A stretch of DNA of 63,761 bases, the filler included, from Kipferlia bialata (Eukaryota), in the NCBI GenBank assembly GCA_003568945.1. It is 5 parts of 5 records of this genome, joined end to end, with 100 filler letters (N's around TTAATTAATTAA, not from the genome) between each part and the next. Parts side by side here need not be neighbours in the genome. Positions count along the whole stretch, not along the records: positions 33,035 to 49,427 come from BDIP01000610.1; 4 more parts are not named here. One strand, given 5' to 3'. A program made the position numbers and the translations under genes. Positions 27,001 through 52,900 of the stretch are shown here, piece after piece (position 1 is the stretch's first letter; each line of letters starts with the position of its first letter). Under the pieces are notes generated by a model, which was not told the origin of the DNA, ran no database searches, and saw only the letters and a program-made list of their open reading frames with translations.

Positions 27001-30000
27001 AGGGCCCTGGAAGCAGAGACTCTTCCCATACCCAGTGGGGAGGACAGCCAGTACGTCACGACCTGGGGTCAGAGTACACGGGAAGACACACTCCCAGTAA
27101 TGAAGATACAAGTACATACACATAGAGAATACAGTGGACACACCTGACAGTGTTGCATTCATGACTGCTAGACTAGTATATGTATACAAGAGGTCAAATA
27201 CACATACATGTATATACATACATATATATGAATATAAACATTGATACCTGACAGTGCTGCATTCATGACGGGTAGCTGTGCTGGTCTGGGCCTAGGCACA
27301 CCCAGCCTGGACAGCACCCTTATGAGTCTGTCAGACCAGTGGTACTGGCCCCCATACTCTCTGACAGGCCCAGACACATCAGGGGACCACCCAGCCACTA
27401 GGGGTCTAGTGGCACCAGCAGCACTGCTAGGATGCCTAGGGTGTGCTGATCCTGTCTGGCCCTGCATGCCCATACCCATCCCTCCACCGAGGCCAGGCTT
27501 GGGACCTGACACCACGGGTGCAGAGACACCCTCACTCCCTGCAAAGGTGGTGGCTGGGGTCACTATACAGAGTTACATATGTAACACAATAATACGCATA
27601 ACCCATGCCCCACCTGGTATCCCCCTCATGTCATATGCGTTGTACCCACCCGTGGCCCTGTCTGCCATGCCTGGGGTAAGTACAGTAGGGGGGTAAGGTA
27701 TGTATATATGCACACTCTATCTGTATACCAGATGGTTAGGTAGCAACTATACCCAACACATACAATATTACTAGTGGCCCTGTCTGCCATGCCTGGGGGG
27801 TCAGGGTGTATACAGGGCAATCCATGAATATGCACTATACACATCAGGGCACCCAATGTACACGGGATGGGTAGGGAATACACCGTTGGATACCTCAGCA
27901 GTAATAGCGTATATATACCATTATAGAGTATGTACACAACACATGTGTGTCTGCACCTGCTGGTATTGTGGGCACCGTCGGGTCCATCCCCCTCTTGGGC
28001 TGGGGGGCAGGGGGGTCACTCTCAAAGTCAATGACATCATCATAGTCATCGGGTATGCCCCTCCCTCCCCCACCCATTACCCCCTGTCTACACATACCAC
28101 CCTGGGCCCCAGGGGTGACACCCCCCTGGCCACCGTATGGCAAGGGGGGAGGGGCATTGCTATTGTACCCCCCACCCTGAGGCATAGCACCACCCGTACC
28201 ACCATACCCTGCCCCATTACCATTACCATTGGCTGTGGGTATAGGCACCGCAGCCCCATTGAATGAGTCCACCTGTGGGACTATAGGGGAGGGGGGTCTG
28301 GGAATAGAGACTGCAGAGAGTGGCTGGGCATTGAATGCATACTCTACCCCACACTCTGACACCTCTGAGGGTGACTGGGTGGATAGGGACACAGGGACAG
28401 GGGGTAGAGAGTGGGCAGGGAAGAAGGTGCTGAGGGAGGGACCAGCCCTGGGTGGGATGGGGATGGAAGGGACAGGAGCCGCACCCATTGGCCCGGTCTC
28501 CACCACTTCCACGATGTCTATGTCTAGAGCATCGGTACCATGTCCATCACTGTCTCTCTCTCTCTCTCTCTCCCTATGCACAGATGGCACAGTCCCAGTG
28601 GGACGGGACACGGCAGACGGACCAGAGTTGGCATAAACAGGCGCAGGTACATGGTGGTATGGCCCCCCACCCATACCATGTGCAGTGTTAGAGTGGACAG
28701 GGGTGTCAACCCGTCTGTACGGGTTGTGGTTAGTGTCCTGTCTCTCCCTTTGGTATGGATTCCCACCTGCACCTGTGCCATATGCACCAGTGGATATATG
28801 TGGCTGGGGTGCATGTCCAGTAGAACTACCCTGCATACCACCCCCATACACACCATGTGAGTGGGACTGGGTGGGGATAGGTACCCCTGGCCCATGGCTC
28901 TCCACCTTGGGCTGTGCATACACATCGACATGGGCGCCACTAGAAGTCGTGTCTGTAGGCTGCTGGGGCTGGTGATAGACAGAGCGTGGGGTAGGTCTAC
29001 CATACAGACTAGACGTGCCACTACTGGGTGGTGCCTGTGGCTGGGGTGTAGGCTCCATGTGGATGTCAGGGGGGGATAGTTCCCCAGTGGACACAGGGGG
29101 TATACCAGCAGAGGGTGCGTATCCACTGGGTGCCCCCCTGTTGGGCTGTCCCATAGACAGGTACAGGGTCTCCCCCCCACCACTGGAACCATCCTCACTG
29201 TCACTGTCACTATCTAGATGGGAGAATAACCCATCTGACACAGGATGGGGGGCACCCCCAGTGACAGCAGAGGCACTAGGCACACAGGGCTGAGTGGGCA
29301 AGGGGTGAGTGGGCAGGGGGTGAGTGACACCAAACTGGGGGAGGGCACTGCTACTATCCCCTCCAGCACTAGAGTAGGACACAGGAGCACGCATATACCC
29401 TGCGCCCTGACCCCCATATGACTGTGAGGGGTATGTACTGTTGTTGCCCTCAGCCTTGGCCCTGAGGACAGGGTCAGGCAGGATACCCCCTCTAGAGTAT
29501 GACATGGGGTCAGTCCCACGGGAGGGGGGCACCCTGGGCATGCTGTACATGCCAGTAGAGACACTAGGGACAGGGGGGGCAGAGGGGGTGGGGGCTGGGC
29601 GTCTCTCCCTCTCCCTCTCCCTCTCCCCGCCTCCTACTTGTGTGGCCTGTCTGATGTATGCATCTATGTCCTGCATACCAGCGTCTATGTCACTGCTGTC
29701 ACTGTCGCTGGACTCCAGGCCACAGAGGGGGGAGGCATGGGAGACAGGAGGAGGGGGGCGGGAGGGTATGTTAGGGATGGAGGATGGTTTACCGGCAGAG
29801 ACAGAGACACCCCTGCTGCCCCTCTCCCTCATCCTCTCCCTCTCCCTCTCTGCCTGTGTGACCACCCCACCCTGTGTCATGCCCAGCCTCAGTGCCCTGT
29901 GCTCTGGTCCACCCCTCTTGACATCGGGGGACATGATCAGCTCGCTGGACTCCTCTGCCCCACCCTCACTTTCGGTGTCCCCAAAGCTCATGCACTCACT

Positions 30001-30216
30001 GTCCTCACCCTGGTTAGGGGTAGGGGCAGGGGCATAGGCATAGGGCCTGGGCACACGGGATGTGGATGCATTGGACTGACTGACGGGGACGCCTCTGCCC
30101 TGGGTACGTCCAGCCGGGTAGTCTCTCCCCTGTCTACCCCCCCTATACTGTGGACTAGGGCTAGGGGGTGTGTCATCTGACATGGACAGCACAGAGTCAG
30201 AGTCATCATACGGCAT
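24048..30216 (-). CDS. recQ: RecQ-family DNA helicase (BLM/Sgs1-like architecture with a long disordered N-terminus)
   Basis: [12 protein letters not shown] (motif I), [13 protein letters not shown] (Ia), [25 protein letters not shown] (II), LTATA (III), [13 protein letters not shown] (IV), [18 protein letters not shown] (V), YMQEIGRAGRDG (VI), Cys-rich RQC-like CRR. First exon of about 750 codons is Ser/Pro/Gly-rich. Confidence 0.93.
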
Positions 30217-30510: not shown

Positions 30511-31963
30511 ATGCTGCATGACTCTGAGCAGCTAGCCCTGCTGGATAGACTGAGTCATGACCGACAGGACGTGGAGTTCCTGTCAGTTGCCAGTGTCCTG
30601 AGACAGAGGGCCAGTGGGAGTCTGCTATTAGGAATAGTGCTCAGGGAGAGTGTGTTCATAGAGCAGCACTACAGACATGACCACACACTGAGACAGAGGG
30701 CGCAGCAGGGGGCAATGCATCTGGTATGTGTGTATATATATGTATACACAACCCAATCCAATCTGACACCCAGTACACTGCCCTGCTCTCTGTCCACAAG
30801 GCATGTCCCTGCCCCCAGAGGCTGCTACAGGCATGCTACTTAGTCACCAGACTCTGCCCCCCCTCTCCTGCTGTGATATCCCTCGGCCTCTCTCTCTCCC
30901 TCTCTGCACCCTGTCAACACCCAGAGGCAGCAGTGTTCTTCGCAAGGTAAGAATGTATGTATATATGTATATACCAACATAATGGCTACCAATGGCTTCT
31001 GTCAGTGTTGAATCTGCCTCCCCCCCCCCCCCCCCCCCCCCCCTTCCCCCCCCCCCCCCCCCCCTCACCCAGTCTTCTTTGCCACCTTCCACATCATGCT
31101 GATGGTGGTGTGGGTCAGGAGGGCACAGACATACCTGTGGCAGACGATACCAGCACACATATGCATGATGGCCACGGTGCTGCTGACAACCTGGAGGGGA
31201 GGTGGGATGAGAGTGTGTTGTGACACTATAGTTTACCATGAGTGGTCACGTTGACCTGACCCCCAGGCCCTGTGATAGGTGAGCCCATCAACTGGGTGAC
31301 AGTGCTGACCACGGGCACATACTTTGGACTCATCAATCTGCAGGTGGGCGCTCTATCCCTAACAGATAGACTGACCAATGTCACATACCCACTGTGTATC
31401 CCCTCTCACCCAGACCTTCCTGGCCTCTGCCACCCCCAAGCCCCAGTTTGCAGGCAGGACACTCGGGACCACCCAGGTATGATAGGGTGTTGGTAGTGTA
31501 TGGGCTCACACTTCCGATGATCTCATAACTATACTAGAATGGGGCCTTCTATTCATATTCCAATCTACCCCACCCCCACTGACCCCAGCCCTGGCTGTTC
31601 CCTGTGCTTGCTGGGTGGAGTTTCATCCTGTCAGACATTGTGGTTATCACAATGGTATTCCTGCTGCACCACGGTACGTTGGTGTGTTATTGTGTGTTTG
31701 TGACACGCTATGCAAGTACGAGTGTACCCTGATATTCATGGTACTCCTCTCTTCCCCTCATGCCAGGGCTGCTGCGTGACGTTGTGGTCATGATACCCTA
31801 CTATGGGGGCCTGGCCCTGGTTGTGGGCACCACTGTGTTCTTCCCGACAGCCGACGAGGGCCGCTCCCCAGCCCCCTCCCAGCCTATCAAGCAGACCCTG
31901 CCCCTGGAGGGTGTGGTGGGGCAGGGGGAGGCTGCCGCAGACACCGTTGTACAGTCTGACTGA
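30511..31963 (+). CDS. Multi-pass membrane protein of unknown family
   Basis: ATG 30511. Exons with hydrophobic stretches (VFFATFHIMLMVVWV, NWVTVLTTGTYFGLINLQ, WSFILSDIVVITMVFLLH, YYGGLALVVGTTVFFP). TGA at 31961-31963. Confidence 0.65.
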
Positions 31964-32890: not shown

Positions 32891-32934
<44 letters not shown>

Positions 32935-33034: not shown

Positions 33035-33121
33035 ACGGTCCAGGACTGTGTGGGGGGGCGGGGGGGGGGTAGGGATAGAGAGACTAATAAATATACTGAT
33101 TGTCTTAGAGCACCCTAGTAC

Positions 33122-33334
33122 CTCGACAGACACTGTCTTTGTCTGTGCACCCTCCCCCTGCACGCCAAAGGCAACCTCCGCATCCTCTCTCTCGACCTCC
33201 TCGCCTTGGGTGAGATAAGAGACATAGAGAATATCAGTGTGGATATTGAATCTACACAGGTATGGGAATAGGCTGCAGATACCTACAAGGGGCCTGATAC
33301 GGACGAACACCTGCACATTACTGTGTTCAGACAT
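33122..33334 (-). CDS. Kinesin motor protein, N-terminal exons only (truncated)
   Basis: MSEHSNVQVFVRIRPL matches the kinesin motor first strand (V.VR.RP). Confidence 0.75.
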
Positions 33335-34162
33335 GATGATGATGATGTTGCAGAATATTGAAGAGAGGGGTGTGTGTGGTGATCACAGTGTGATAAGGAA
33401 TTGATGATTGATTATCAGCTTGGTAATCAATCATCTGATCTTGCAATATGAGGCGAAGTCTATGTGGCTAGTTGTGTGGTTCGTGTGCACTCACCGTATG
33501 GGCCCCGAGGTGTGTGGGTTGTCTGGTGCCTTAGTCAACTCCGACCAACGTCCTGATGTGAGTAGTTCAGTGCCGTTCATTGAACGTCATTCGTTTGCAT
33601 ATGTTCATAGCATGGTTTTGCTGGGCACTGTTGGAGGTAAGGGTTACTATGTAGCGAGGTAGATGAGATAACACAAGATCTTCATCCCACACTTGTAGTG
33701 TGATACTATATCTCTAGATTCAGAGTATGCGAGTTGGCAAATCCAATGATTGCGTTGGTCGGTAGTACCGACTCGGTACATCCCTTCTATCTTCTACTTC
33801 CACTCTGACGAATGGCAATCAAACTGCAAACACTGCAAGCGCTGGAATCCCGTTGAGATTATAGTTGAACTTCAACTGTTGAAGAAATACTCACATATAC
33901 TCTGTCCCCTTTAGTGTTCCCTTGACATGGCATCACTGAACAGGGCCCTGTCTGAGGAGTTCCTCTTCTCTCATTCTGCTTCTACCTTTCCTTACCAAGG
34001 TATCTTACATAGGCCTCACCCTTATCAGGATGTGACTCATGAGTCATGAGTGAGTGTTCAGTGGTGTTGCCCCTCACATTATTGAGGGTGTAAGTAGCAA
34101 AAACCGGATTGTTTCCGGATATTCTGGGAACGTCATCCTCTACCTCTCTTCCACTTCTGAGG

Positions 34163-34716
34163 ATGCCTCGTGCAGTGAAGGTGCCCGCTGGGGTTGATGC
34201 TAGTGGCCGAGATGCGTCACTATGGGGTATGACCTTCGACACTGCACAGGGGCTATTGACAGAGATGGAAAGACAGTCTGGGAGGCAGTGGCAGATGGTG
34301 GGGAGGGGGGTCAAGCAGAGGCGGGCCAAGTGTCTCTCTGGAGCAGGGGCAGAGCCCTATAGGAGACCCCCAGTGCTGAGCTGGGCGTGTGAGTGTGAGG
34401 TGTATGTGGAGATCAAAGGTATGTGCAAGATATAGTAATGCGTATCAATTATGGTATGTCACTATCACTCACTCTATCATAGTACTGTATCTCTGTGTAG
34501 TTCAGTTCTCTGATCAGTAGCAGGTCAGTTCCGCCTGGGAAAGTTCCGCAGCTCTGTGCATCACAATCAGTGTCTCGAGAATGGACAGGTGTATTTAGTA
34601 TATACAATATTCATATACATTATATACATATATTGCATATATATAACATATACATTGTGTGTGCTGTATCCTACTATTGGATTCCTCTCTCGTAGGTTGA
34701 AGACTCTGTATTGTAA
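34163..34716 (+). CDS. Small (~115 aa) protein resembling a FAR1/WRKY-GCM1-type zinc DNA-binding domain
   Basis: Exons 34163-34418, 34518-34588 and 34696-34716 splice in phase: GMTFDT...RAKCLSG...WACECEVYVEIK...FRLGKF...HHNQC, TAA stop. Confidence 0.5.
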
Positions 34717-35107
34717 ACACCACGATGAAAAGAACCTAGAACCTCGTGATAATAATTGCAGTCTTCATAATGTATGATGTAGACAGTGCCACAGTGATAT
34801 ATATGTATATGAAACACATACTCAGTATGTGACATACTGTCTTCTTCTAACACAGCCTCTCCCCCAGCTTCGCATCCTGACCCCCGCCAAGACCCCAGTT
34901 TCTTCACCCCCTGGGGTGTGTGTGTCACTTAACCCTGTGGCTGTCCATGGGACATCTGAGGTAATACAGCTGTATACTGTCTAAGCATAATTCTCAACAT
35001 ATGGTATATGAGACAGTCCTATATATATCATAGTTCTTTACTGCTTCTTGACCGTGCTTTGCCCCTCAGATGTCAGGACTATTAATTCTAGTTAATAACT
35101 AGTAGTT

Positions 35108-36243
35108 ATGGTAAGTCTACTCGATACTGATATACAGGCGTTGTCCACAGTACATAGGACATTCACACCTGTTGGTGTGTTGAGTTCTATTCCATACTTA
35201 TACACTAGGTGTTCTGCTTACCAGAGTCCAACATCCATCACTGCGTGACAGTCACTTTAGCCGCAGAAGGATCAGACACGACACGTCTGTCTGCATGTAT
35301 GGACAGAAGAACCACGCCTGGGGTAGTCGCGGCGGCATTCAACTGTGTGAAAGTCGGTACAAGGCTATATGTACCCACACACACATACAACCAGACTCTG
35401 ACTCGTATTGTTCCCGTCATGCTTGTGAATGACATGGATACTGGGGTGTGGCACGAGGAGGCATGGTGCAAGGGCGGCCCCACTGTGGACTGTCAGCTGT
35501 GGGCCATGGGGCACTACATATACGCTCTCGGTCACACGGAGCCCAGCCCAGAGTCCAAGGTTGCCCGGGGATACACTTGCTTCAGGCGCTATGACACTGA
35601 TCAACGTAGATGGACGGCTATTGGCCTACCTACAATACTGGGTGGAGTAACAAGAGTGAGAGGTACCACCAACGGGCAGTGCATCAGGCATCCCTTCCCT
35701 GACGAGCTCTCTCTCCGCCCCTCAGACCAACAGTGTGCTGTGGCTGTGGTAACGGACACCGCATATGTCTTTTGCTGTAAGGCCACCTCAATTGCGGTTG
35801 TCACAGCCTACAGACACAAGTCCAGACCTTCTGGGGGCTGGTGGAAGTGCCGTAGCCACTATGCAAGACACACTCTCTTCAAGACATATATATGTCAGAT
35901 GCAGAGAGCACGGGGAGAGAAGGGACTGACTCTGATATCTGCCATAGTATGTGGTCGACGTATAGTGCTAGTGGACAAGCCTCCCAACGCTAGAGGACGT
36001 GGGACGAACCAACAGTCGAACATTACCACTTACTACGCTGTGTTTGATACCATCTCTGAGGAGTGGTGCGAGTGGGATGACCTTGGTATCGATAACCACG
36101 TTGTGCAGGCTGAGGATGGACGCATAGTCTACACACAGAGAGAGAAAGGAAGGGAGGGTCCTCGTCTACAGGTGTTCAGTCAGGCGGAGGTGGATCCGAC
36201 CCTCCTCTACCCACACCCAGACATGAGATGGGCGGAGTACTAG
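35108..36243 (+). CDS. Kelch-like beta-propeller protein
   Basis: 344-codon exon with kelch-like units (LYV...DMDTGVW, IYALG...YDTDQRRW, FDTISEEW) ending LYPHPDMRWAEY-TAG. Possible ATG|GT micro first exon at 35108-35110. Confidence 0.65.
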
Positions 36244-36678
36244 ACAAACCCAGAGTCAACTGAATGTATTGGTGATATTTACACATCTTCATTTACAGCA
36301 CTGCATTATACTGCATTTAGTATTAGGGTTGGCATGCGACGTCACCTGGCAAGAATCTTGCGACATGCGACATGTCAGGCTATGACTGTAAGCATATATG
36401 CATTCACTCACTGTATGGCTACCACAAAATAGTGACAAGGGAGTGGTCAGATACCTCATCAGGGGACACACAAACTCCAGCAGCATCCCTCCATTCCTGC
36501 ACTGCACTATGATAACTTTAAGGGGTGTCAGGGGGCCGAGGAGGATCATCTGGAGACCTAACACTGTGTAGAGAGACGTCTACAACACTACCTAGACCCT
36601 TTTGCGATGCAGGTGTATTTGCCACTTGAAGTTGACTCGTTGATGAGTAACCATCGTCTTCCCTCTCTCTACCCTGCC

Positions 36679-36958
36679 ATGGCAGGTCCCGAAGAGGATG
36701 ACAGCTCCACGTGGATATGCAAGGAGCCTCCTGTATGCGGCAAGGGGGTAGAGGAGGAGAAGGAGGCGGAGGAGGTTGTGGTGGATCCCGCCACCCAGGT
36801 ATATGCCCTATAACTCATCAGTTCTGGTACTAAGTGATCATATTTACTGTTCCTGACCCCTAGGCGGCCGTCAGAGCCCTCCGAGCTGAGATGATGAGGG
36901 AAAGGATGAGAGGACTCGCCGGGTTCCGCCCAGAGAGCATAGAGCAGCTGAAGACTAG
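36679..36958 (+). CDS. Hypothetical protein fragment (two clear exons, 3' end unresolved)
   Basis: MAGPEEDD...DPATQ, intron 36799-36863, AAVRALRAEMMRERMRGLAGFRPESIEQLKT. Confidence 0.45.
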
Positions 36959-37680
36959 GTATGAAGTATATATACTCTTGTAAGAAGTATACTCTAGTAT
37001 GTGTACAAAGAGGGGACTCGTGCATTCAGGACAGAGAGTCAGTATAGCATGGCAAGGTGTGTGTGTAATCATAGTATGGACTTCAGGTATATACAGTATG
37101 CTGTTAGATGAGAGTGGTCAGGAGAGGTACGCCTTCAGGTCTCTCTCTCTCTCTCTCTCTCCACCCTTGCTTCCCGTTAGAGAACGTAAATGCAAGTATA
37201 TTTCTTCTTCTCAGACACACATACCCTAATAGGTTAGTTCTATCCCCCCCCCCCCCCCCCCCTCCACCCACTCATTCCATTGTCTTCCTCTGTCACCCCC
37301 ATTCCACTTTGTGTTTCTGACACAGGTTATGAGTTTATACTATCATACTACATTGTAGATACATGATATGCATTGAAATGTTGCATCAGTGGCTCTCTTT
37401 CACTACCCACCCCCTACACCCACACCTGAATGCTACCCCTATCATCTTTCCTTCGCTACCCCAATACTCCGGTATATATGCTCATGACTGCATTGACTAA
37501 GCTTATACTACAGCTGTGGGTATATTTTACTATATATACTGTAATAGTTGTCAAGGAATATAGTATGTACTGACTGCAATGACAAGGTCCCCACTGCATC
37601 TGCTATTCTATATACTAAATACTGTATATACATTGTACTATATATATTATCTACTGTATATATTAGCTTACTCCAGTGAC

Positions 37681-39399
37681 ATGGCCCCTGGTTCCACTCC
37701 CCCTACAGAGAGTGATCTCTCCGTCAAGACCGAGCCCCAACTGTACCAGAAGGTATTAGTATATTTAAATATTGATTATTAATGGCAATGCATATTCAAC
37801 ATCAAGACGGTATTCATATGTATATATCATACTACTATCACTGATGCTTTCCACAAGGTTAAGGCAGTGTATATATGGATATCATAGATATGTATATAGT
37901 ATATACATATTTTTATATACACTACTTGTACTTGTTGTAAGTTCAAGACAGTATATATGGTATGCATATATATATATACACAGATATGTATGTGTTTGTG
38001 TAGTACTGTTCTGCTTCTGATACGAGGTCCTAGCACTATTTGTATGGTCTGTTTGGTACTGGTATGGATACTGATACTCATAGAAGGTCGCAGCAATTGA
38101 ATTGTGTGTATGATAGTGGTTGTCAGTATATCTCAGTCATATATTGATAGTACTGATTCAAGGTTAAGAAGGCCCATGAGGTCAGGCTGGGCTCTCTGAA
38201 TCCAGAGCAGATAGAGTCGCTCCTCAATGACAAGAGGGCTCTTCAGGATGAGAACACCACCCTCAAGAGTGAGAATGCTTCTCTCAGGAGGGACAACACA
38301 GAGCTGAGGCAACAGGTGTGTGTTTCCATGTGTATTCCATGCGTGATGAATAGTATTGCAATTATAGATATGGAATACATTTCCTATTGAGCATTCACAT
38401 ACACCACTTACATTCAGCTAGAGGTCCTCCAGAAGACAGACAGAGAGAGGGAGAGGGAGAGTGAGAGGGAGGGAGAGAGGGAGAGGGAGGGAGAGAGGGA
38501 GATGGAGGAGTTCTCGTTGTCTCCCAGGTACTTGAAGATATATTATATATTCTATATATTCTTGTGTCATTGTCCAATGATGTGTGCACCAAGTATTGTA
38601 ATTATAACAGCCAATTCTAACCCTAAATGCACTTTGGATTTCTATCAGTCATCACTCACCCATTAGCGAGCCTCAGTCGAAGCGCGCTGCTGTTGAAGAC
38701 AACGACGCTGAGCTAGAGGACTCTGCAGATGAGCAGCAGTTCATGTTCGGTACCCAGGAGTACCAAGACGAGAGGGAGAGGATGCTGACTCGGGAGAGAG
38801 AGGGAAAGGACATCAGGGTGAAGCCCTGCCCCCTTGCTGAGTCCATGCCAAGGTCCGCTATCAGCCACGTGTATGACGACTTCTGGGTGTTTGTGACACG
38901 GGAGGGTCTCTGTGAGATACTCAAGGAAACCAAAGCATGCCCCAGGTATTCTCCTGGATGGACAAGGCAAAGGGGCGGTCCACTCCCTAGCTTCCGTCGC
39001 AGCACACTGAGGGAGCTCCACCAGCAGGTCGCCAAGTACGCCGGAGACCCACCTCCCTCTAGGGGTTCCAACTGCGACACAGATACCCTGGTCGATGATC
39101 TGACCGAGTGGGCCATGCGCAGGACTCCTGACCAGTTCGCTTCTGATATGAAGAGCATCACACATTGGAGCCACGGGCACACCGACACTGACGTCTGGAG
39201 CAAGAGGCGGTACCACGATACATGTTCGTCATCCATGTTCGTTACCATGGGTATGTTCAGTTACACCGAGCACGGCACCCAGGCTATTTGGACTAGTAGA
39301 CACTCTCTGATCACACAACTGGCCGTAGTCACAGGGAGCACGTGGGAGACCGTTGGAAGAGGTACTTCAGTGAGAGATTGTTCTATATTGGGATTCTGA
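37681..39399 (+). CDS. Hypothetical protein with an N-terminal coiled coil and a globular C-terminal region
   Basis: ATG 37681 MAPGSTPP. Heptad exon KRALQDENTTLKSENASLRRDNTELRQQ. Last exon of about 240 codons ends at TGA 39399. Confidence 0.65.
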
Positions 39400-40372
39400 A
39401 ACATTGATACACTGATTCCATATTCTCTAATAGTGATTCAAGTAGTCATCTATTAGTGTCATCAGTTCCGACAGCTCCCAATGTATCTTTGACACGTGTC
39501 AGAGGTCTCTATAACCGAATCTAACATTAGGCTATGTGAGTTGCGATAAGCCTCCTTTCCATGTTAGGGTCGTGGAGAAAGATGGCGGGATAGTCATGGA
39601 TTGGCGTAGTGGCAAGCACATTACAGCGCGAGCCGCACTAGCGAGACGGGCCAGGGTTTTGAAGTGGACAGCTGAGCGGGATACCGCAGAGACTAACTGA
39701 GTGATGTGGTAATTGGAGGGTCTTACGGCGTATTAGTCCCTCTTTAGAATAATAGCAGTCTGCTAGTAGCAGGTTACCGTATCACAGCTGTGGAGTGTTA
39801 CTAGTAATGGAGCAACTCCAGCATCGAGACGAGTGGAGTAGTCAATAGAATCGTTGATGGAAGAGAGACTGTGTTCGACTATCAAGACATCCTAAGAGAA
39901 GCTCACAAGTTGTTGAATGTAATTGGATGTAATTAGGGCAGTACCTTCAGAGGCGACATAGAATGTATTTATGAATCATAGTGTCAAAGACTGTCACAGT
40001 GATTGGTATAGCTTCAACACCCAGAGAATACTCTGGCACAACACTCTATTGCGGTCTCCCCCCCACCAGACCCATATCATAGGGGTCACAGAGTGCCACA
40101 CTCTCATGCCCCCTTCTCTCTCTCTTGTTCTTATGCACACTGGGTAGGGGCAGGAGGGAGACACCGAGGAGATAGGAGGTGACCCTCTCGCCTGGTATAA
40201 GAGATATATATGATATTTACAAGCACAGATGCATACATATGTATGATAATGAGGGTAGACACCGAGGAGATACAAGGTGACTCTCTCGCCTAGAATGAGA
40301 AAAGGGACTGTAAACAAATGTGACTATATGGACACACACAGATGTTATGTTTGTACCCAGTATTGAGAGATG

Positions 40373-42430
40373 CTAGTACATGAGTGTACCTGCTGACAGG
40401 AATGCCAGGTAGCTGGGAGAGGGAGTGACTGTGCCAGTGGGCAGATTACCCTCTGCCTCTGCCTCTCCCTCTCTGTCTTCTAGGAACTCTGCACCCAGTG
40501 CATCGCCAAGAGGACTGGCTGAATATGAATACACATCATATATATATATGGTACTAAATACATATGAAGAGAGAGAGAGAGAGAGCACTGTGCACCCGGT
40601 GCATCCCCGAGGGGACTGGCTGAGGGTCAGAAGAATACTAATACATATATATTAATGAAAACACAATAGTGATAAGAATAGATGGGGAGAGAGAACAATG
40701 AGACACTCAACTCTCCAGATACATAAGCAGTTAAAGTGTTAGTAGAACTGGCGAGAGTAAGATGATCGTCAATCAATGATATCTATGTGTCTATACACAC
40801 AGTCGATATACATATATTTAAGAACACCAACCTGCCATGACTGGTGTTCTTGGTGTGGATGGTGCAGACTGACCCTCTGAGCCAGGGAGGTGCTTATGGA
40901 GAGACAGACGAGGGGTGGTAGTACTCGGTACTCTAGAGGGACTAGCGGTACTTGTCACAGTGTGTGACATGTCAGTACCAATACCCCCAGACTGTGTAAA
41001 GGGGTGCACTGTGGGCACTGTCTCACCCAGCATGGAGGTGACATCCCCCCTCTGGCTGTCCAGGATAAGTCTGATCTGGGGGGTAAGTAATAACTCTCTA
41101 TATATATGTATGTAAATATTCATACATTCATATGTGATTAGTCATTGTAGACTCTCAAGGATCAATCTGATCTGGGGGTAAGTGAATTTATACATGGACA
41201 GGTTGCCATTTGCAGACTGCTAACATTGCTATTTATGATATAATAGAACATATAATAGAAAGTATAGTAGATACGGCAAAATAGAATGAATCATAGAATA
41301 TACCCGCACCCTGGCTATCCTGTGTCCCACAAATGTGGCAACCTGCTTGGATGTAACGTCCTTGACCTGGGGGTGAGGGATGCTACTATTGGATATATTC
41401 TTCTCATATGTGTACATATGATTACATTTGTGTATATACCTGTCTCCCCACTGAGTGTGCTATGTTAGCTGTGTTGACTGTCTCCACCACAGAGGACAGC
41501 AGAGTGACAGCAGCCATGCATCTAGAGTGAGGGTCGTATATATATATGTGTATATATATAGAGAGACAGAGATTGACTGTCTCCACAACTGAGGACAGGA
41601 GGGTCACTGCTGCCATACACCTTAGGGTAAGATCCACAATGTACACTATACATATGTACACAAATATACACGCAGCGAGAATGATAGGGAAGGACAGAAG
41701 GGTCACTGCTGCCATGCACCTTTGGGTAAGATGTGTACTATTTCAAGGTGTGTCATAGTAAGTACTATACCTACTGCCACTAGATAGACTGGCCAGGGCA
41801 GGCACGGCATCCACTATACTACATAGTATATATACATATACTCATGACGTTACCTCTCTCTCTATACATATGTATACTATACCTGCCATCATTGGACAGA
41901 CTGGCCAGGGCAGGCACGGCAGTCAGGGTGTCATCGGGGGACAGGCCTGGGAGTAAGGATGGGTGTATGTGCATATATAGATTGAAAGAGATGTGTGTAT
42001 ATTGAATAGAGGTATACAGTGAATATATATGTGTAGGCACGGCAGTCAGGGTGTCATCGGGGGACAGGCCTATGGGTTAGTGGGTAAGTATATGTATATG
42101 TATATTTAGATTGAATGATAAATATATATATACACTATAATATATATGTACATTGTATATACAAAATACAATTCATTATTACATATATATATTAATAATA
42201 ATACATATATACAGTTTGTATATAAGATATATATATAAGAGTATATATATAAGAAATATCTATACACTTATACAATGTATCAGTATCGGTACCTGGGTGG
42301 TTCTCTACCGATAGCATCACGACCGATATCTCTCTGTCGACTCCAGTCAATGAGACCTTAGGGTAAATGGTGTAGAGGGAGAGAGATACATTAGCAAGGA
42401 GACCTGGGTGTAAACTGAGAGAGAGTCAAT

Positions 42431-42470
<40 letters not shown>

Positions 42471-43284
42471 TAACAGTCAAGGTGACCTGGGTATAAACCG
42501 AGAGAGAGTCAGTGTGTGGATAGCATGTATTACTACTTCTATCCAGGATGGCGCGTCGCACACAAAGGCGATCAGACCTGTACCAAGGGAGTTATATGGA
42601 GATAGAAGGAGAGGGTAAGACCAAACCACATACCACTGCATCTACCAATGTCCTAGGCTGCGAGTGTATATACTATATGTCTAGTACATATATATACTAT
42701 ATGTCTAGTACATATATGTACACAATATCACTCACCACTGCATCCACTAATGATGTCTCTGGTGTGGCCACAAGGGCAGAGGCCACAATCTACAGTAAGT
42801 GGAAAGATAAGAACACCAAATAAATCGAAACGTCAGACACGAAGAGAGAGAGAGAGGCTCTTGGGGTGGCCACAAGGGCAGGGGCAACAATCTAGAGTGA
42901 GATAGAAGGATACCAAATAGAAACAATATATATATATATATATAGGGAGAGAGAGAGAGATGCTCTTGGGGTGGCCAAGGGCAGAGGCCACAATCTAGAG
43001 TAAGACATACATATATTTCATACATAAATTTATGCAATAGTCTCAGAGATAGAAAGGGGGAGAGAGAGGTGTACTCCGGGGTGGCCACAAGGGCAGAGGC
43101 AACAATATTCAAAAAGTAAGACAGATACACTTGACAATATATACCCATGCTATGTATTCAGGGAGAGATAGAGACTTCACCAACCTGCAGGGCGAGGGAG
43201 AGAGAGGACACGAGTGATGCAGGGACAGATGCACCCTTGGAGTGGATGACTGTCATGACAGCGGAGAGGACCTGAGTTAAGGGT

Positions 43285-43320
<36 letters not shown>

Positions 43321-44972
43321 ACTGTCATGACAGCGGAGAGGACCTGAGACAAGGGTGTAGAGAGAGAGAGAGAGAGAGAGAGAGGATGACTGCCATGACA
43401 GCTGAGAGGACCTGGAATAAGGGTGTAGAGGGAGAGAGAGAGAAAGAGACAGTGGCATACACACGAGGATACCTGTATCCCTAGTCCAAGTGCATTGGCT
43501 GGAGGGGGTGTCCCTGTCAGTGCTCCCCTTGTGAGTGCATTGCACACAGAGCAGAGGAGGAAGGAGAGGGGACCGGAGACAGAGAGCTAGTATGAGAGAG
43601 GGAATTGGAAGGATAGAGAGAGAGAGAGAGATATTGCACACAGAGCATAGGAGGAAGGAGAGGGGGCCTGAGACAGACAGCTACTATTGGAAAGAGGGAG
43701 AGAGAGCAGATGAGGAATAAGTAGAGGATCTGATACGGACAGTTAGTAAGACACTGATACTCATATAGTGAGCAAGTGAGAGCGCATGGAAGGAAAAGGG
43801 ACCACACTAGACACACTACAATAGTACCGACATTGCCAGTAAATAGGGATAGAGCGTCACACCAGGAGAGAACAAATGGGCAGGCACACAAGTACTCATA
43901 TAGTAAAGCAAACATATTTATATATATATACAATAAACGTATGTATTTATATACACTTTATTTGATACATATACATATATAATATATATACCTGGGCAGG
44001 TGACGGTGGCAGTGGCTGTGGATCCTGGTCCTTCTTGCGCCACCTAGAGATGAGGGAAACATATACATAAACAGGGGGAGAGAGCAATTATGCCACAAGG
44101 GTAGGAGAGATACATAATGTAAAACACTGTCCAATTACCAATACTTCTCGCGCCAATGTAGCCACCTAGGTGTGAGAGATGCAAAATTACGCTATATATA
44201 GAGAGATCCAGGGAGAGGAGAATATATGTATCGAATATATATAGCGCAAATATACCATAGTATGGAAGATAAACACACCTTGAGAAGAGACCGGGAGACG
44301 GGGTAGAACCCTGTACATTTACACAATCATATATACAGTATATATAACCAGATCCCACTTCTCTGTGCACTCTTAGATCAATATGTACATATATACATAT
44401 GTTGTATAATTGAGTACCTTGAAAAGAGGCCAGGGGATGGTGTAGAACCCGGTGAGGCAAAGAACTTGGGTCCAAAGAGACCTGCCTGGGGATGAGGATA
44501 ACAGTGATACACGTGTGTATATACATATATATATACATATATATATATATTTGGTCCAAAGAGTCCTGTCACCTAGGGATTAGTGATACAAAGAGAGAGA
44601 GAGAGATAGAAGAGAGTGCCTAGTAAGTATGCATACGTACGAAAATACAATACTATTCACACATACCTCTGGTGTGCCCAGACAAGAAGGTTGATAGATA
44701 TACATATATATATGTCTCTCTATACAGTTCATAATATAGTACATAATCATATACATATATATATATATATATGCATACCTCTGGTGTGCCTGGACCAGTG
44801 ATGTACATATATCACTCTCTCTATATATATATTATATTAGTAAATGCACTACAATAGTGTACATTATTGTGAAAATGTATGTACCTCTGGGGTTCCCTGA
44901 CCGGGTGGTGGTGACAATACTGTCTGCAGGAGGGTGAGAGCACCTGGGATAAGTATATATATATATATCCAT

Positions 44973-45008
<36 letters not shown>

Positions 45009-48000
45009 CAACACAGTCTGAAGGAGGGTGAGAGCACCTGGGTTAGTGTATACATAGTTTAGAAAACTATCGACATGCAGCGTGTATTTAGTACAAAGGA
45101 TATTGGGATATATAGTTTGTACACAGACACTCACTTAGCAGCATGCATGGTGTGGATGTGCTGGCTGCACCTATACGAATAATGAATATACGTATATATG
45201 TATATAATAATATATATCTATGGATATATATATCTATGGATATATATATATGTGTGTGTGCGTGTGTGTGTGTATAAACTTACTCACTTAGCAGCATGCA
45301 TGGTGTGGATATGCTGGATGATCCACCCTCGGGGACAGGCAGGGGGGCGTCTAGTGTTAGTGTGTATAAATAGATACAACTGTGTTATGCAGATATCAAT
45401 AGTAAGTATACTATACATCTATATGATGACTAGTCTACTCTCGGGTCAAAACAGAGAGATATATCGGAGCTGCATCATATTCCATAACTGCATCTATATA
45501 TACAAATATCCGGACATAAATGTGCACTGGAAGTGTATACACACATCATACCTGGACTGGTATATAGGTGCATACATTGATACACTAATTCCTGGACATA
45601 CATATATACTGGAAGTGTATACACACATCATACCTGGACTGGTGTACTCTTCATCATATTCTATTACTGCCTCAATTGATAAACTTATACCTGGGCACAT
45701 ATGTATACTGGTAGTGTATACCCAATCATACCTGGACTGGTGTATATGGCAGCTGGCATAGCCGATGGGAACAGGGCCCTGGACATTAGATCAACGCAAA
45801 CACTTTCTATGTGAGTGTATATAGTATTACAAAGTAGTACACTCATACATATACAATTACCTGGAACAGTACCCTGGCCTTATGAGGAATTCAGAGTACA
45901 CACATATAGAATATTTGCGTATACCTAATACTCTACTCTCGCTCTCTCTATACACATATATTACTTTAATACAGCCAATATATTGTTTACCTGCACCACA
46001 CTATGACTCTCTCTCTCTCTCTCTCTACATATATAAATATATATATGAATATATATATACATACATATACATACATACTAACCTGCACATCACAGCCTGT
46101 ACAGCCAGTCTCTGACTGTGCTCAGCAGAGGCAACGTCATTACCAGTATCTGCATCGTTAGAAGAGTCCATAGTACACGTGTACACATCTAGGGAGCAAA
46201 GAAACGCTAGTACCTACGGAAGGACCTCTAGAGGGTCTAGCTGGTGATAGTACAGATGGCCTTGTAGTGTTGTCTCTGTTGTTCTCTGTTGATGCCCCAC
46301 CCATGGACATCCTAAGGAGCACATCGGATAGGACAAGTAATGATCCCTAAGCATGAGACGTACATAGAATACAGTATACATGTAAATGTATATACATGAA
46401 TGGACATCCTTAGCAGGACATCGGACAGGACAAAGAGGGTGCCCTAGGAGTAAGGGAATACATATATATATATATATACATCTATCTATCTATACATACC
46501 TGTGCAGCGTGTGCTATGCAACCATCCACATTGGCTATATGTCCAGCCACCACGGTAAGTAACATGGCACAGAGAGCAGACGCACGGGATGTATAGAGGG
46601 TAGATGCATCCATAGCACCAGGAGTGGATGCATCTATGGTACCAGCTATGTACTGCAGTATCCAGAGCAGTCTCGATAAGGGGTGCAGGAGACGCCTCAA
46701 CAGGAGGGTCTAGGATTAGAGGAGAGAGAGAAAGAGAGAGAGAGATAGTCGGGACAAGGGGTGCAATAGTCGGTTTAGGGTAAGAGTATCAATGGGTTCT
46801 GTATTTCCACCATCCAACTGAGTTCATATTGAGTTGTGCATATATACCTGCATTGCCGAGCACCTGTTGCCCCCAAAGACAGTCAGGGTCCACTCACACA
46901 GGGTGACAACTCTAAAGGTCAGTATCCACATTTTAATAAATATATCTGTTAATATGAATATATACTCTCACCTAGCTAGTATGGCACTATACCCAGCCAT
47001 GCCGAGTGGTGGGAGTGTGGACACACATGGAGAGGGTGAGGGTGTGACATTGGGCCTGTTGCCAAGGACACATGCACTCTCATACAGCATCTAGAGTCAG
47101 GTATGCTACTAACATTTTTATGTATATATGAAATACGTTAAGAGGGGGAAGGGAGAGATGTCATGTGGCCAAGGACACCCGCACTCTCATACAGCATCTG
47201 GGGGTGGAGAAATACAAAACACACATATACATAGTGTCATGTGTATCCATACCTATGTCACTGATATATATACTTGTATTAATATACACGTGTATGTGTG
47301 TGTGTGTGTGTATGTGCGTGTGTATCCCTACCTGTGTCACTGTGGCCATGCCTCTGACCAACACCTCACAGTCAGGGGAGACCTTTGGTAAGTTGCATAC
47401 TATATATAGAGTACACTATGATATATAACACACTACAACACAGATATACTCTGACCAACACCTCACAGTCAGGGGAGCTCTTAGGGGTTAGAAAGGTATG
47501 TGAATTCACATACACAGACAATCACTAGATATATATGTGCATAAACAAACACTCCCTGACGAACCCGCTGTCCTATGTCTGGTAAAGCCATAACCATATG
47601 CCAGAGACATATACAATATATATGAATTGAGTGCTGTGTAAGTGTATGTAAGTTCATATATACGATTACTATATGGAAACCTGCTGTCCTATCTCTGGCA
47701 GGCCTTATGACAGCAGCGTATTAATACAGTAGGTTATATCTTACATATTTAGTACATATATGTATATATACACACTAGTACATACTACATACCTGTTGCC
47801 CTATCTCTGGCAGGTCAAGTGACAGCAGTGCCATCACCACAGGCCAGGGGTCAGTGGGGGGAGGGGGACCACTTAACCTCTGAGTGGCAGTCTCTCTCCC
47901 TCCCTCTTGGACAGGTACCTTGTCTGTTTGTCTCTCTCCCACTTGTTCTCCTTGCACTTTCGGCGCTTCCTCTGCATCAGAATCTCTCCCTATCTCCCTA

Positions 48001-49346
48001 TCATCCTGTTCTACAGCCTTCCCATCTTCTACAGCAGGCCTCTCCCCCTCTTTGCTCTTCTCTTCTGCTTCTGTTGCCACCACTGGCTCTTCTCTCTCCT
48101 CCACACATTCCCTCTCCTCAACCTCGTCTGCTTCTCCCTCTATACCCTTATCACTCTCTCCCTCTACCTCTGGACAATTATTACACTCTCCCTCTCCTTG
48201 TAATGTGGTCTGTGTGGGTGGTCTCACTTGAGGTGTCTCCCTCTGCACCTGAGGTGTCTCCCTCTGTACTTCTCTCTCCACTTCTATGTCTCTCTTGCCA
48301 TAGACCAGAGGGGAGAGGACAGTGAGCAGGGCAAGGTCAGAGAACACAAGAGATCTATGGTAAGCTAGATAGAAACATCTACATATAGAGAGAAAGAGGA
48401 AGAGAGAGAGAGAGGACAGTGAGCAGGGCAAGATCGGAGAAGACTAATGATCTATGGTTAGCTACACACATATATATGTATAGAGGGAGAGAGAGAGAGT
48501 GAAGTGAGGAGTGCTAGACCAGAAAAGACCAGGGACCAAGGGCTATAAATACATATGTGTATATGGCGGGACAGACAAAGTGAGAGAGAGTACCTCAGTG
48601 TGTCTATGCGGCACAGCACTGAAGAACACATTGTTATTCAATACAAATATGTCACATTAAGGTAGTACCTCAGTGTGTCAATCCGGCATAGGAGTGAGGG
48701 TGCGTCTGTCTGGTCTGTCTGTCTCTCTGCCTGTCTCTCCCTCAACAGCTGCATGTGCCTTACACAGAGAGCGGTAACTACTGTTGAGATGGACAATATC
48801 GCATATCCTGTATCTAATACATTCTATATATATCTTATACATATTTCATATATATCTCAACAGCTGCATGTGTCTGACGTACAGGGCAGTGACTATAGTT
48901 AGAAGAATACAACGTATACCAACATACGCACACATATATGGAGTGAGTGAATACTTAATATGTGGCGTGTAGGTGCGATGGCACTGCACACTGTCAACAC
49001 ATAAATGAATAGTCAATATATCCATACCAGTTGCGTGAAGGTAGCTAGGCACTGCACACCCACTGGACACAATATGGTATATACATAATACAATATACAC
49101 TGTATGACATATATATATATAAATATGCGTATATAGTATACCTGTAGCATGCAAGTATGACGGCACTGTACACCCACTGGACACAAGATGGGGATGTACA
49201 ATACACACAGTATAGTATATATTGTATGATACATATACATATATATACATTATATACCTGTTGCATGTAAGTATGATGGTATCGCGCACCCACTGGACAC
49301 AAGGTGGGGGGTCAGTCGGGTGATGACATGCATAGTGGTGCCAAGC
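40373..49346 (-). CDS. Large many-exon hypothetical protein (Leu-rich helical segments plus a Glu-rich insert); 5' truncated
   Basis: Many short in-frame exons (RCMAAVTLLSSVVETVN, AGLFGPKFFASPGSTPSPGLFSR, SLVFSDLALLTVLSPLVY) and an acidic exon at 47792-48354. Ends SAGTLMY-TAG at 40373. Confidence 0.65.
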
Positions 49347-49381
49347 CTTTGATGAGTTAAGGGTATATATGAATACATATG

Positions 49382-49427
<46 letters not shown>

Positions 49428-49527: not shown

Positions 49528-49579
<52 letters not shown>

Positions 49580-49984: not shown

Positions 49985-52900
49985 ATGGCCAACACGGTAT
50001 GTAAAGATATTATGGCAGTTAGAGTGTTTCTAACCCCAGCCAGTGTCTGGTGGAAAGCCAAAGGAGGCCCAGCAGAAGAGGGCACGCCTGCAGCGTGCTA
50101 TTATGCAGCAGGCCCCTGCTATTACATCTATCTTTAGCCAGTTTGACTCGGATGGAAAGGGGACTGTGTCTCGTGAGGTAATAGGAACCACATGTGTGCT
50201 GCTTATGCTACTCATTATTATCTGCGTCTAACTCCATCAGGAGTTCGATCTCGGCATGTCTGCGCTTGGATTCTCTCCCACAGACCGCAGTTTCAAGCGT
50301 ATGGTTCAGTCTTGTGCAGCAAATGACAGGTAGGGACTCATTCTCGGAGAGTGAATGATTTGATTTAGTTCTGACAAGAGGTCTTGTACGCACTCATTGT
50401 CTTCCTAAAGTACTATTTCCAAGAGCAGGTCATTCTCTAATGTATAATGAACATATGTGATGTGGATACTCACTTCTGCGGCCCTTGATGGTACTGACAG
50501 CAGGGTGGACTACAACAGATTCCTGACAGGCATGAGAGAGAGACAGGCCTCCCCCAGTGTTGGGACAGGACGGGTTGGCAAGACACCCTCTGCTGCTGGT
50601 ACATTCAGGTATATCTATGTGTTTATGTATGTTGTACAGGTGGGTGCATATGGTGCTTGGGTCAGAGTCAGGATGTAACCCCAGGAAGTACGACACATCA
50701 GGGGACGGGACCGTGACCCCGTATCAGCTGGGTACGCCGTTATATAACCCTGGGTGTTATATTTAGTTCCGCATCGTTACTACTGCAGGGATCCTCTTGT
50801 CATCTGTGTCACTGTTCTGTTTCTAACCCTCTAGCCCTTGGCCTTGCCGAGTTGAACGTGGGTCTGTCCCCCAAGGCCATAGCAGACATTGTGGCCAAGA
50901 GGGCGGTGGTGTCCCCCTCTGCCAAGTCGAGGACAGAGACTGAGTCTGTGGACTACCAGTCTGTGCTGGATGACCTAGGTATGGGACTCTCTATCTATGC
51001 TATCATCATGCCACTCCTCTCACCCCTAGGCATCAGTGTGGCGTCACCCACCAAGCGGGAGAGGGAGAGAGAGAGAGAGAGCAACCGTGTGCACGCAGCC
51101 TCTGTGGGCCCCAAGGCCTCCCCCCCTGTCTCCCCCACCCTGGACGAGGCAGGTGAGGCCTCCCCCCCTCGCCCAGACTCAGCTGGGAGCACAGGGTACA
51201 GCGCAGGGGACGACATGTACGAGGAGTACGATGCGGACATGTACTCCTCCCAGGCCAGGGTCACCACCCTCCCTGTCTGTGACGGCAGTGCCGCCATTGA
51301 GGGCGAGACCGGCAGAGTGACTGTGCTGGAGAGGAGCAGTGGGTCTGTGGTTAGCACGGTGCAGACAAGGGAGGGGGAGGGGGCCATTGTGGTCACCCCT
51401 ATACCCACTGAGACACCCAGGAGACGGGTCATAGAGGCCAGGGAGAGCAGGGAGAAGACAGACATTGTGACAGGTGTGAGCAGGGCCACCCCTGCCCCCT
51501 CCCGCTCTGCCTTCCTGTCTGCCTTTGGCCATGCCTCCACCCTCGTCGACACCCACGTCTATGGCGACATGGCCCAGCTGAGACAGGCCCTGTCCCAGGA
51601 GGATGTCGACATGGGCGACATAGCAGGGGCCCTCACAGCAGCCACAGGTACGGTGTGTTGTATATGGATGCATATGTATGTACTCTGTCTCTGTCTTACC
51701 ACCAGGAGCCCCTCTGACTGAGTCTGACCGGTGGGCTCTGAGGACAGCCTACAGTGCACAGAGGCCAGGGAAGGACAGGTTGGTGTATCCACTGTCCCTA
51801 TTGACCATGGCTCCGTTGTCTCACCCCCAGGGATAGCCAGGTGGATGCATGCCTGCGTGTGCTCAAGGCAGGTATCAAGGTGGCACATGCTGAGCCTGAG
51901 CCTGTCGCCAGCCTTAAGCACGTGAAGTCCTCTGCTACCCTTGCCCAGCGCAGTAACAGACCCATCTCCTCGCAGATGGCAGCAAAGAACCCAGGTAGGG
52001 GCGTCGTATGCTATCCTGCACTGTCTTCTTCTATCCTCTACCTTGGTACCCGCCTCATCCCCAGGTCAGAGTGCCGCCATGAAGGCATTGGGCGTGGATG
52101 CCGCCAGAAGGGTGCTGGAGGTGCGCAGAGAGACGTATGCTAAGGACGGGGCCGAGGACAAGGGCAAGGAGAGCGACGCAGACCTCTGCCGTGCCGCCCT
52201 GGAGGTCGGGGGTGCCCTCTCTGCCCTGCCTGGCATGAGTGACATCTGCACAGACCTGCAGGCCAGGGGGCAGACAGTGCGCGTGGCAGAGGTGGCCCAG
52301 GTACGCTGTCCATTCTCTCTCTCTCCCCCCCCCCCCACCCTTTATACCCACCCCAGGCCCTCTCCGCCGTGTCTACTATGCCCAAGGAACAGCTCGAGAC
52401 AGCCATCCAGGAGACATGCCCGGTGGAGGGTATGTGCCATTCCATATGTGCCTATTTTGCTGGTTTTGACACTGTAGTTTTCCATGCTAACCACCAGACG
52501 GACGCGTCGCTGTCAACACTGTGTTCGCTGCTATGCACGATGCCCTGGAGACTGTGGCTCACAGGTGCGTCGCACTACCCCCCCCCCCCCATTCAGCTAC
52601 ACCACAGTCTAACCCCAGCAAGCCTCTGCGCAAGCACCCTCTGCTGAATGTCGACACTGAGCGTGAGAGCAGTGTGAGTGGCACTCCCCGTGTGGGAGAG
52701 GTCTCCGGCACCATGCAGCGTCTGGCCTCTCTGCAGCAGAGCCTCAAGCAGGCCGTGGGGCACAACCCGGACAGGCTGCACCAGGTGTTCAGCAGGACAG
52801 ACGAGAACGGGGACGGACAGCTGACCAGGGAGGAGTTCACATCGGCCGTGCACAAGGTGGGGACTCGTAATTGCAGTGTGTGTTCACTGTGTATTATCTC

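What the first reader, a model, noticed from the sequence alone, without database searches (positions are those of the whole stretch)
41473..41725. Cleanest echo: 10 differences in 49 nt, all synonymous
Minus strand. Real exon start (41521-41473): A TGC ATG GCT GCT GTC ACT CTG CTG TCC TCT GTG GTG GAG ACA GTC AAC. Echo (41620-41572): G TGT ATG GCA GCA GTG ACC CTC CTG TCC TCA GTT GTG GAG ACA GTC AAT. Both encode RCMAAVTLLSSVVETVN. A second, shorter echo (~41719-41692) uses yet another Leu codon (CTT) and still reads RCMAAVTLLS. Each copy has its own acceptor.
Basis: seen in the sequence. Interest (0 to 1): 0.8.

Follow-up and report, generated by a model that had tools for sequence, protein, structure and literature searches.

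The report
Exon-edge echoes from diverged alleles
Most introns of three genes in this single-celled eukaryote hold spliced-out copies of the neighbouring exon's edge that differ from the working exon mainly by silent changes, which likely makes them leftovers of other, highly diverged working versions of the gene, picked up by recombination and lengthening the introns.

Summary
Both echoes lie in a 361-nt intron of a Kipferlia bialata gene; a spliced contig skips them and uses the acceptor at 41521. One DNA contig holds both echoes in cis at flanking depth. The pattern is general: three genes hold 56 such copies (28 of 46 introns), with 156 synonymous and 55 non-synonymous differences (dN/dS about 0.10; synonymous share 0.74 against 0.45 simulated). 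Echo-versus-echo differences are also mostly synonymous (33 of 48). The amino-acid changes look unfiltered and do not track the silent ones, so divergence came under selection first and brief decay followed. The architecture is the known amphioxus 'mirage' repeat; the scan filed a sea-urchin case under that name before, and that note gave me the lead. New here: density, a protist host, unalignable intron parts and the two-clock signature. Best explanation (0.6): exon edges captured from diverged working alleles by one-ended repair or unequal exchange. Main gap: no second allele of these genes was found. In the published amphioxus alignment, by eye, three of six silent mirage codons match the other haplotype's working exon.

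The parts
41440..41521 (-). Working exon 19 (82 nt) of the gene for P0002 (KIPB_003259)
   Evidence: X2 record 9 piece 41438-41521, joints 41364/41438 and 41521/41883; model reproduces P0002
41522..41882 (-). 361-nt GT-AG intron that holds all three echoes
   Evidence: joint 41521/41883, ends CT..AC on +; anatomy
41572..41620 (-). Echo 1: copy of the first 49 nt of exon 19, 10 synonymous differences, behind its own branch motif and AG
41692..41719 (-). Echo 2: copy of the first 28 nt of exon 19, 6 synonymous differences from the real exon, 2 from echo 1
41522..41571 (-). 50-nt intron tail with the acceptor that is used; does not align with the tail in front of echo 1
41621..41691 (-). 71-nt intron tail ending in the unused acceptor of echo 1
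41720..41770 (-). 51-nt inner GT..branch..AG stretch between the donor-side echo and echo 2; looks like an intact minimal intron (inferred relic of an older allele's intron)
   Evidence: echo-free introns have median 84 nt, shortest 59
41771..41809 (-). Donor-side echo: copy of the last 39 nt of exon 18 with its own GT, 4 synonymous and 3 non-synonymous differences
41883..41946 (-). Working exon 18
40046..48754 (-). Annotated 23-exon coding region of P0002 (873 aa, no Pfam family); with one inferred 5' exon, 28 echoes in or beside 17 of 23 introns
48961..49288 (-). Four copies of one exon end (inferred 5' exon 49346-49258 plus three echoes) with nearly the same decapeptide, four different Leu codons and three different Ser, Pro and Ala codons
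   Evidence: exon inferred from the open frame, not from RNA
58280..61915 (+). Second gene (my 9-exon model from frame continuity only) with 22 echoes, 51 synonymous and 18 non-synonymous differences
24048..30183 (-). RecQ-type helicase gene (P0005, 16 exons) with 6 echoes, 10 synonymous and 8 non-synonymous differences

Best explanation
The echoes are spliced-out intronic copies of exon edges that likely came from other, strongly diverged working alleles of the same gene. Shown: they sit in tandem, acceptor-side copies upstream and donor-side copies downstream of the real exon, about 99 nt apart, and the main transcript uses the first donor and last acceptor. Inferred step 1: two working alleles with diverged silent sites and unalignable introns meet in one nucleus. 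Step 2: a break in a short exon is repaired from the other allele; synthesis runs through the exon edge into foreign intron, cannot re-anneal, and is end-joined, often at a (CT)n run. One allele's exon edge plus splice site is then left inside the intron and the other's works. Step 3: unequal exchange between existing copies adds or removes units. Step 4: the spliceosome ignores an acceptor without a following donor (exon definition or nested removal), so the insertion is nearly neutral and decays. The echoes have no present protein-coding role in this reading; they lengthen introns and record the allele pool.
For: Both echoes skipped in the spliced contig; in cis in DNA. 156 of 211 differences synonymous in 56 echoes; simulated neutral-echo null 0.45 +/- 0.03, maximum 0.53 in 180 runs. 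Echo against echo 33 of 48 synonymous, p 2e-9 against neutral and 8e-4 against 0.45, so each copy has a working past. Two clocks: pN does not track pS (rho 0.04; constant dN/dS predicts 0.41-0.54, P <= 0.002); the 52 amino-acid changes are as harsh as random ones (mean BLOSUM62 -0.58 against -0.64, P 0.41), one is a stop. pS is overdispersed (p 2e-6), pN is not (p 0.54), 50 echoes. Intron flanks of echo and real copy do not align in 35 of 50. Four codon-distinct versions of one exon end. 16 of 35 acceptor echoes end at a CT/GA run against 8.6% background; not independent within arrays. Intron length rises with echo number. Metamonads lack Ku-dependent end joining (PMC8516963, passages); aborted SDSA plus end joining gives tandem duplications in worms (PMC8654963, passages). 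In the amphioxus BflGb6 mirage alignment (PMC3087553 supplement 4, read by eye) units D3-D5 differ from their own working exon at 6 codons before the breakpoint, all silent, and 3 of the 6 match the other haplotype's working exon.
Against: No diverged allele was found: one protein each for P0002 and RecQ, no 'other letters' rows and depth 368-434 on the 7 listed DNA contigs (contigs hide variants). The required silent divergence (dS about 0.4, up to saturation) is far above the 3.2-4.2% heterozygosity quoted for amphioxus (PMC12862219, start of abstract). Farther echoes are not more decayed than nearer ones (pN 0.027 against 0.046), against a simple serial order. The synonymous share does not differ between echoes with alignable and unalignable flanks (31/12 against 115/35, p 0.55), although I expected it to. 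The RecQ gene alone is weak (10 to 8). The near-constant unit size is unexplained. The repair pathway is an analogy from worms, untested here.
Confidence: 0.6

Rival explanations
1. Copies arise as exact tandem duplications on one chromosome; afterwards short gene conversion from diverged alleles rewrites the working exon or refreshes single units. This also needs a diverged allele pool but not one-ended capture.
For: 15 of 50 echoes have alignable intron flanks, and arrays share breakpoints; one echo is identical over 35 nt (exon 18); concerted evolution is reported for amphioxus mirages (PMC3087553, passages).
Against: 35 of 50 flanks do not align, often right up to the AG with a different branch motif, which fits tail and exon edge arriving as one foreign block; fast microsatellite slippage could mimic this.
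Confidence: 0.15
2. The echoes are still translated in minor or condition-specific isoforms and are held by present selection.
For: dN/dS about 0.10; AG kept in 28 of 33, GT in 17 of 17; the focal read-through 41721-41439 is in frame and open.
Against: The spliced contig skips them; unit spacing modulo 3 is 17/17/16; amino-acid changes are unfiltered, uncorrelated with silent ones, and include a stop and, by eye, frameshifts; by eye no GT/AG pair in the focal copies would rejoin echo to exon in register.
Confidence: 0.08
3. Assembly chimera that strings together pieces of different haplotypes or strains.
For: Short-read draft; the species is reported diploid (PMC5874029, section 11); the link from echo 1 to exon 19 is not bridged in the lay (41533-41576 skipped as repeat), and X1 may be the source of this DNA.
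Against: One contig (41577-41941, depth 418, no other letters) holds the exon 18 end, the donor echo, echo 2 and most of echo 1; flanks have depth 432. The copies share at most 17 identical bases in register, too few to confuse a 31-mer graph (word size as I recall it for these contigs). Polarity is strict in all hits.
Confidence: 0.04
4. Ordinary neutral tandem duplicates; the silent bias comes from selection on the real exon alone plus picking the best example.
Against: Codon-blind detection plus simulation gives 0.45 at most 0.53, observed 0.74; nearest echoes only 109 to 43; echo against echo 33 to 15.
Confidence: 0.03

Closest known systems
Amphioxus 'mirages' (tandem duplications of exon-intron boundaries in Adh3, globins BflGb6/BflGb9, troponin C, PGBD5; PMC3087553, PMC3902484)
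   Same: Tandem units of intron end plus exon start, or exon end plus intron start; many keep AG/GT; normal splicing is not disturbed; unit size of tens to about 160 nt; mechanism stated as unclear. By eye the BflGb6 units also differ silently.
   Different: Here in a fornicate protist, in 28 of 46 introns of three genes, not a few loci; mostly 1-3 diverged units; intron parts mostly unalignable (aligned in BflGb6); silent divergence up to saturation. The main text of PMC3087553 has no 'synonymous', 'silent' or 'third codon', nor PMC3902484 'synonymous'. The original Adh paper was not available.
Intron gain by tandem genomic duplication at AGGT (Rogers model; PMC3443670, passages)
   Same: Short internal duplication whose extra copy is removed by splicing.
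   Different: No new intron is made; an existing intron grows. Copies there are identical at birth, so they should not show a protein-level signature.
Tandem duplications from aborted SDSA finished by polymerase-theta end joining (C. elegans helq-1, brc-1; PMC8654963, passages)
   Same: One-ended synthesis plus end joining duplicates the copied tract; sizes start near 100 bp.
   Different: Sister template, identical copies, median about 1 kb, mutant backgrounds. A diverged homolog as template is my inference.
Tandem mutually exclusive exons (Dscam-type; recalled, from no call)
   Same: Neighbouring exon copies with silent divergence and conserved peptide.
   Different: Those are whole exons that are used; these are half exons with one splice site, skipped in the contig.

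Membership tests
Mirage (exon-intron boundary tandem repeat) | Tandem unit spans a splice boundary and includes exon sequence | tested here: met
Mirage (exon-intron boundary tandem repeat) | Both 5' and 3' boundaries can be duplicated | tested here: met
   35 acceptor-side and 21 donor-side echoes
Mirage (exon-intron boundary tandem repeat) | Extra copies stay intronic; normal mRNA is made | tested here: met
   spliced contig skips the echoes at the joints listed for 40190-42292; one sample, contigs only
Mirage (exon-intron boundary tandem repeat) | Units alike over intron and exon part (minisatellite-like, 81-100% in BflGb6) | tested here: inconclusive
   met in 15 of 50, not in 35 of 50, the focal echo-to-real pairs among the latter; echo 1 and echo 2 share their last intron bases
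Mirage (exon-intron boundary tandem repeat) | Copy number differs between haplotypes or cells | not testable with these tools
   one sample, contigs only; metagenome scans empty
Mutually exclusive exon duplicates | Each copy is a whole exon with acceptor and donor, used in mRNA | tested here: not met
   half exons only; skipped
Intron gain by AGGT duplication | New intron runs between duplicated AGGT sites inside an exon | tested here: not met
   the used donor 41882 and acceptor 41522 flank all copies
Recursive splicing ratchet point | AG|GT at the internal site, used as intermediate | tested here: inconclusive
   both focal echoes begin with GT after AG, most others do not; intermediates cannot be seen in contigs

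The most novel reading that the evidence does not exclude
Kipferlia introns are a layered archive of a hyperdiverse allele pool: a lineage without Ku-dependent end joining repairs breaks from strongly diverged homologs and stacks about 100-nt exon-edge relics into most introns, genome-wide. Echoes would then give population diversity and proof of outcrossing from one genome, explain much of this 51-Mb genome's intron mass as recent growth, and supply the missing mechanism for animal mirages.
Probability: 0.35. Interest if true: 0.85.

Novelty: new variant of a known kind. Interest (0 to 1): 0.62.

Why it matters
Mirages are known from a few animal genes, with their origin called unclear. Here they occupy 28 of 46 introns examined and go with a rise in median intron length from 84 nt (no echo) to 233, 362 and 475 nt (one, two, three echoes). 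That bears on how the one intron-rich fornicate genome got its intron mass; the passages and sections of the genome paper that I read do not mention such repeats ('duplicat' 0 hits). The silent-first, decay-later signature says that dead intronic DNA was recently working sequence of another lineage. If so, a single genome records past outcrossing and allele diversity in a group whose sex life is poorly known (my own knowledge), and the mirage mechanism becomes testable by resequencing isolates, also in amphioxus.

Tried and rejected
No whole genome held. No close relative of P0002: metagenome scan 47 pattern matches, none confirmed; degenerate RecQ exon-end pattern 0 matches; 1.84 billion representatives gave only itself and one repetitive snail protein that I judge spurious; no shorter fragments among 7998 candidates; no Pfam family; the protein atlas did not answer, so the protein's function stays open. 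No run is on record as RNA; X2 is a guess, though its joints are GT-AG and match the annotated exons. Reads were laid only on 39450-45150, so exons upstream and the other two genes have no RNA check. In-frame read-through as a function: rejected, spacing modulo 3 is even. Recursive AG|GT as the general rule: not supported. 'Period fixed while tail shrinks', noted: not supported (rho -0.25, p 0.18). Two classes of echo by flank similarity: no difference in synonymous share. Serial ageing outward: not seen. Programmed DNA elimination of echoes: DNA depth over echoes equals flanks and the transcript has the real alleles. A hand-guessed RecQ exon model failed and was replaced by mapping P0005. Literature: 10 searches found no report of these repeats in Kipferlia and none of silent bias in mirages; subscription journals and the 2002 Adh paper were not searchable.

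Full report
Observation. Echo 1 differs from the exon start at 10 of 49 nt, echo 2 at 6 of 28, the echoes from each other at 2 of 28; every difference is at codon position 3 and silent. Ten of ten has probability 3e-6 to 9e-6 at random and 3e-4 under the most generous null.

Context. The window is a chain of five contigs joined by linkers; the finding lies in contig 33035-49427. An exon of the gene matches one protein, P0002, named KIPB_003259 of Kipferlia bialata, 873 aa, with no Pfam family. A 23-exon GT-AG model on the minus strand reproduces it exactly; the focal exon is exon 19, 41521-41440. Introns end in a branch motif a few bases before AG, as described for related diplomonads (PMC6679479, passages).

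Which copy is used. Two runs of one sample hold the stretch. On 39450-45150, contig 9 of X2 (RNA by guess; 3067 nt, depth 39) is spliced: 41883 joins 41521, skipping 361 nt with both echoes; the joints at 40190/40389, 41075/41310 and 41945/42292 skip echoes as well. X2 depth is 0 in bin 41551-41741. In DNA run X1 one contig (41577-41941, depth 418, no other letters) holds the end of exon 18, a donor-side echo, echo 2 and most of echo 1; the next contig has depth 432. The 44 nt between them were skipped as repeat, so the link from echo 1 to exon 19 is not bridged, and X1 may be the source of this DNA. Contigs drop rare forms.

Anatomy of the intron: used donor, 73 nt, copy of the last 39 nt of exon 18 with GT, a 51-nt GT..branch..AG stretch, echo 2, 71 nt, echo 1, 50 nt, used acceptor. 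The middle looks like an older exon-intron-exon junction wrapped in newer layers (inference).

Generality. A search of each intron of this gene against all its exons found only two polarities: acceptor plus exon start upstream of the real exon, exon end plus donor downstream. I added a second gene (58280-61915, +; my model, fixed by an open frame, two solutions differing at the last donor) and the RecQ gene P0005. Codon-blind, ungapped, splice-anchored detection gave 28, 22 and 6 echoes: 56 in all, 1865 nt, in 28 of 46 introns. Differences: 95/29, 51/18 and 10/8 synonymous/non-synonymous; pooled 156/55, dS 0.41, dN 0.041. A simulation with copies identical at birth, real exon changing silently only, echo neutral and the same detection gave a synonymous share of 0.45 +/- 0.03, maximum 0.53 in 180 runs, against 0.74. 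Echoes at one exon end share the real copy; the 37 nearest alone give 109/43. The scan misses copies with indels or low score that I saw by eye (41171, near 42486 and 42403, 48990, near 58613 and 61350); they are not in the counts. Other genes of the window were not modelled. Unit spacing has median 99 nt (IQR 86-112, n 50) and is even modulo 3. Median intron length is 84, 233, 362 and 475 nt for 0, 1, 2 and 3 echoes (n 18, 16, 6, 5).

When the constraint acted. Neighbouring echoes, both unused, differ 33 silent to 15 non-silent in 19 pairs (p 8e-4 against 0.45). One exon end has four versions with four Leu codons and a TCN/AGY serine swap. Yet the 52 amino-acid changes are as harsh as random ones and pN does not track pS; pS varies widely between echoes while pN is homogeneous near 0.04. 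Non-silent changes crowd towards the breakpoint (22 of 55 in the outer third against 32 of 156), so 0.04 is an upper bound. Splice signals are kept about as often as so little decay predicts (AG 28 of 33, GT 17 of 17). The simplest reading is long divergence as working sequence, then a short time dead.

Mechanism. Half an exon cannot be translated in place, and I found no route that would use it. The working past must therefore lie in another copy of the gene. One-ended repair from a diverged allele gives exactly this geometry: duplications survive because splicing ignores them, deletions do not. Metamonads lack Ku70/80 and DNA-PKcs and lean on homologous repair (PMC8516963, passages); aborted SDSA closed by end joining makes tandem duplications in worms (PMC8654963, passages). 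Breakpoints at CT/GA runs (16 of 35 acceptor echoes, 1 of 21 donor echoes, background 8.6%) fit microhomology. Arrays with shared breakpoints point to later unequal exchange. All of this is inferred.

Against. No second allele turned up in proteins, contigs or metagenomes. The diversity needed is extreme. Outer echoes are not older-looking than inner ones, flank similarity does not predict the silent share, and RecQ alone is weak.

Comparison. An earlier scan note on a sea-urchin window named amphioxus mirages; I checked the two papers. PMC3087553 (passages) describes tandem duplications of 5' and 3' exon-intron boundaries, harmless to splicing, unstable in number, of unclear origin; PMC3902484 (one passage) adds PGBD5 and troponin C. 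The echoes are this kind. In supplement 4 of PMC3087553 (read by eye, no script) units D3-D5 of haplotype 1 differ from their working exon at six codons before the breakpoint, all silent, and three of these states are those of haplotype 2's working exon; the main text does not use the word synonymous. This supports the allele origin by analogy and suggests that the signature is general to mirages. The other supplements were not read, and the original Adh paper was not held; either may already note it. The K. bialata genome paper (PMC5874029, passages and sections 11 and 12) reports 124,912 introns and a diploid k-mer profile; 'duplicat' does not occur in its main text.

Verdict. Real, non-random, intronic. 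A new variant of a known kind: mirages at very high density in a protist, with a measurable record of diverged working alleles. Interest 0.62; 0.85 if the genome-wide allele-archive reading holds (probability 0.35).

Noticed in passing
window 48755-49427 (-): The gene of P0002 runs 5' of its annotated ATG: the spliced contig leaves about 440 nt unplaced, and an open exon 49346-49258 joins in frame to an extended exon starting near 48780. The annotated protein is probably N-terminally cut.
   Followed up: partly
window 24048-30183 (-): RecQ-type helicase (P0005, 1390 aa) with a 743-aa first exon lacking a Pfam match; one donor echo copies the FGMGIDRPD motif with 4 of 4 silent changes.
   Followed up: partly
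window 59667-60139 (+): Array of five acceptor-side echoes with two alternating lengths (19-21 and 34 nt) and re-duplicated intron tails; looks like recent unequal exchange.
   Followed up: partly
window 41720-41770 (-): Intact-looking 51-nt mini-intron between a donor echo and an acceptor echo; could be spliced first as a nested intron.
   Followed up: no
window 9-43, 16525-16570, 19889-19926, 22395-22435, 31020-31064, 32892-32934, 49528-49577, 57829-57864: G or C runs of 35-50 nt at most contig ends and inside contigs; real G-tracts or sequencing artefact, unresolved.
   Followed up: no
window 13053-13504 (+): Three near-identical copies of a 50-70 nt AT-rich unit at about 190-nt spacing, not an exon-edge echo by eye.
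   Followed up: no
window 52491-55564 (+): EF-hand protein gene in a GC-rich contig (49528-57872) where the repeat scan found almost no echoes; echo density differs strongly between genes.
   Followed up: no
window 33035-33382 (-): Frame beginning MSEHSNVQVFVRIRPL, which looks like a kinesin N-terminus (motif recalled; no Pfam hit), cut by the contig end.
   Followed up: no
window 43613-43635: Short sequence shared with many other DNA and RNA contigs (depth peak), at an echo breakpoint beside a (CT)n run.
   Followed up: no
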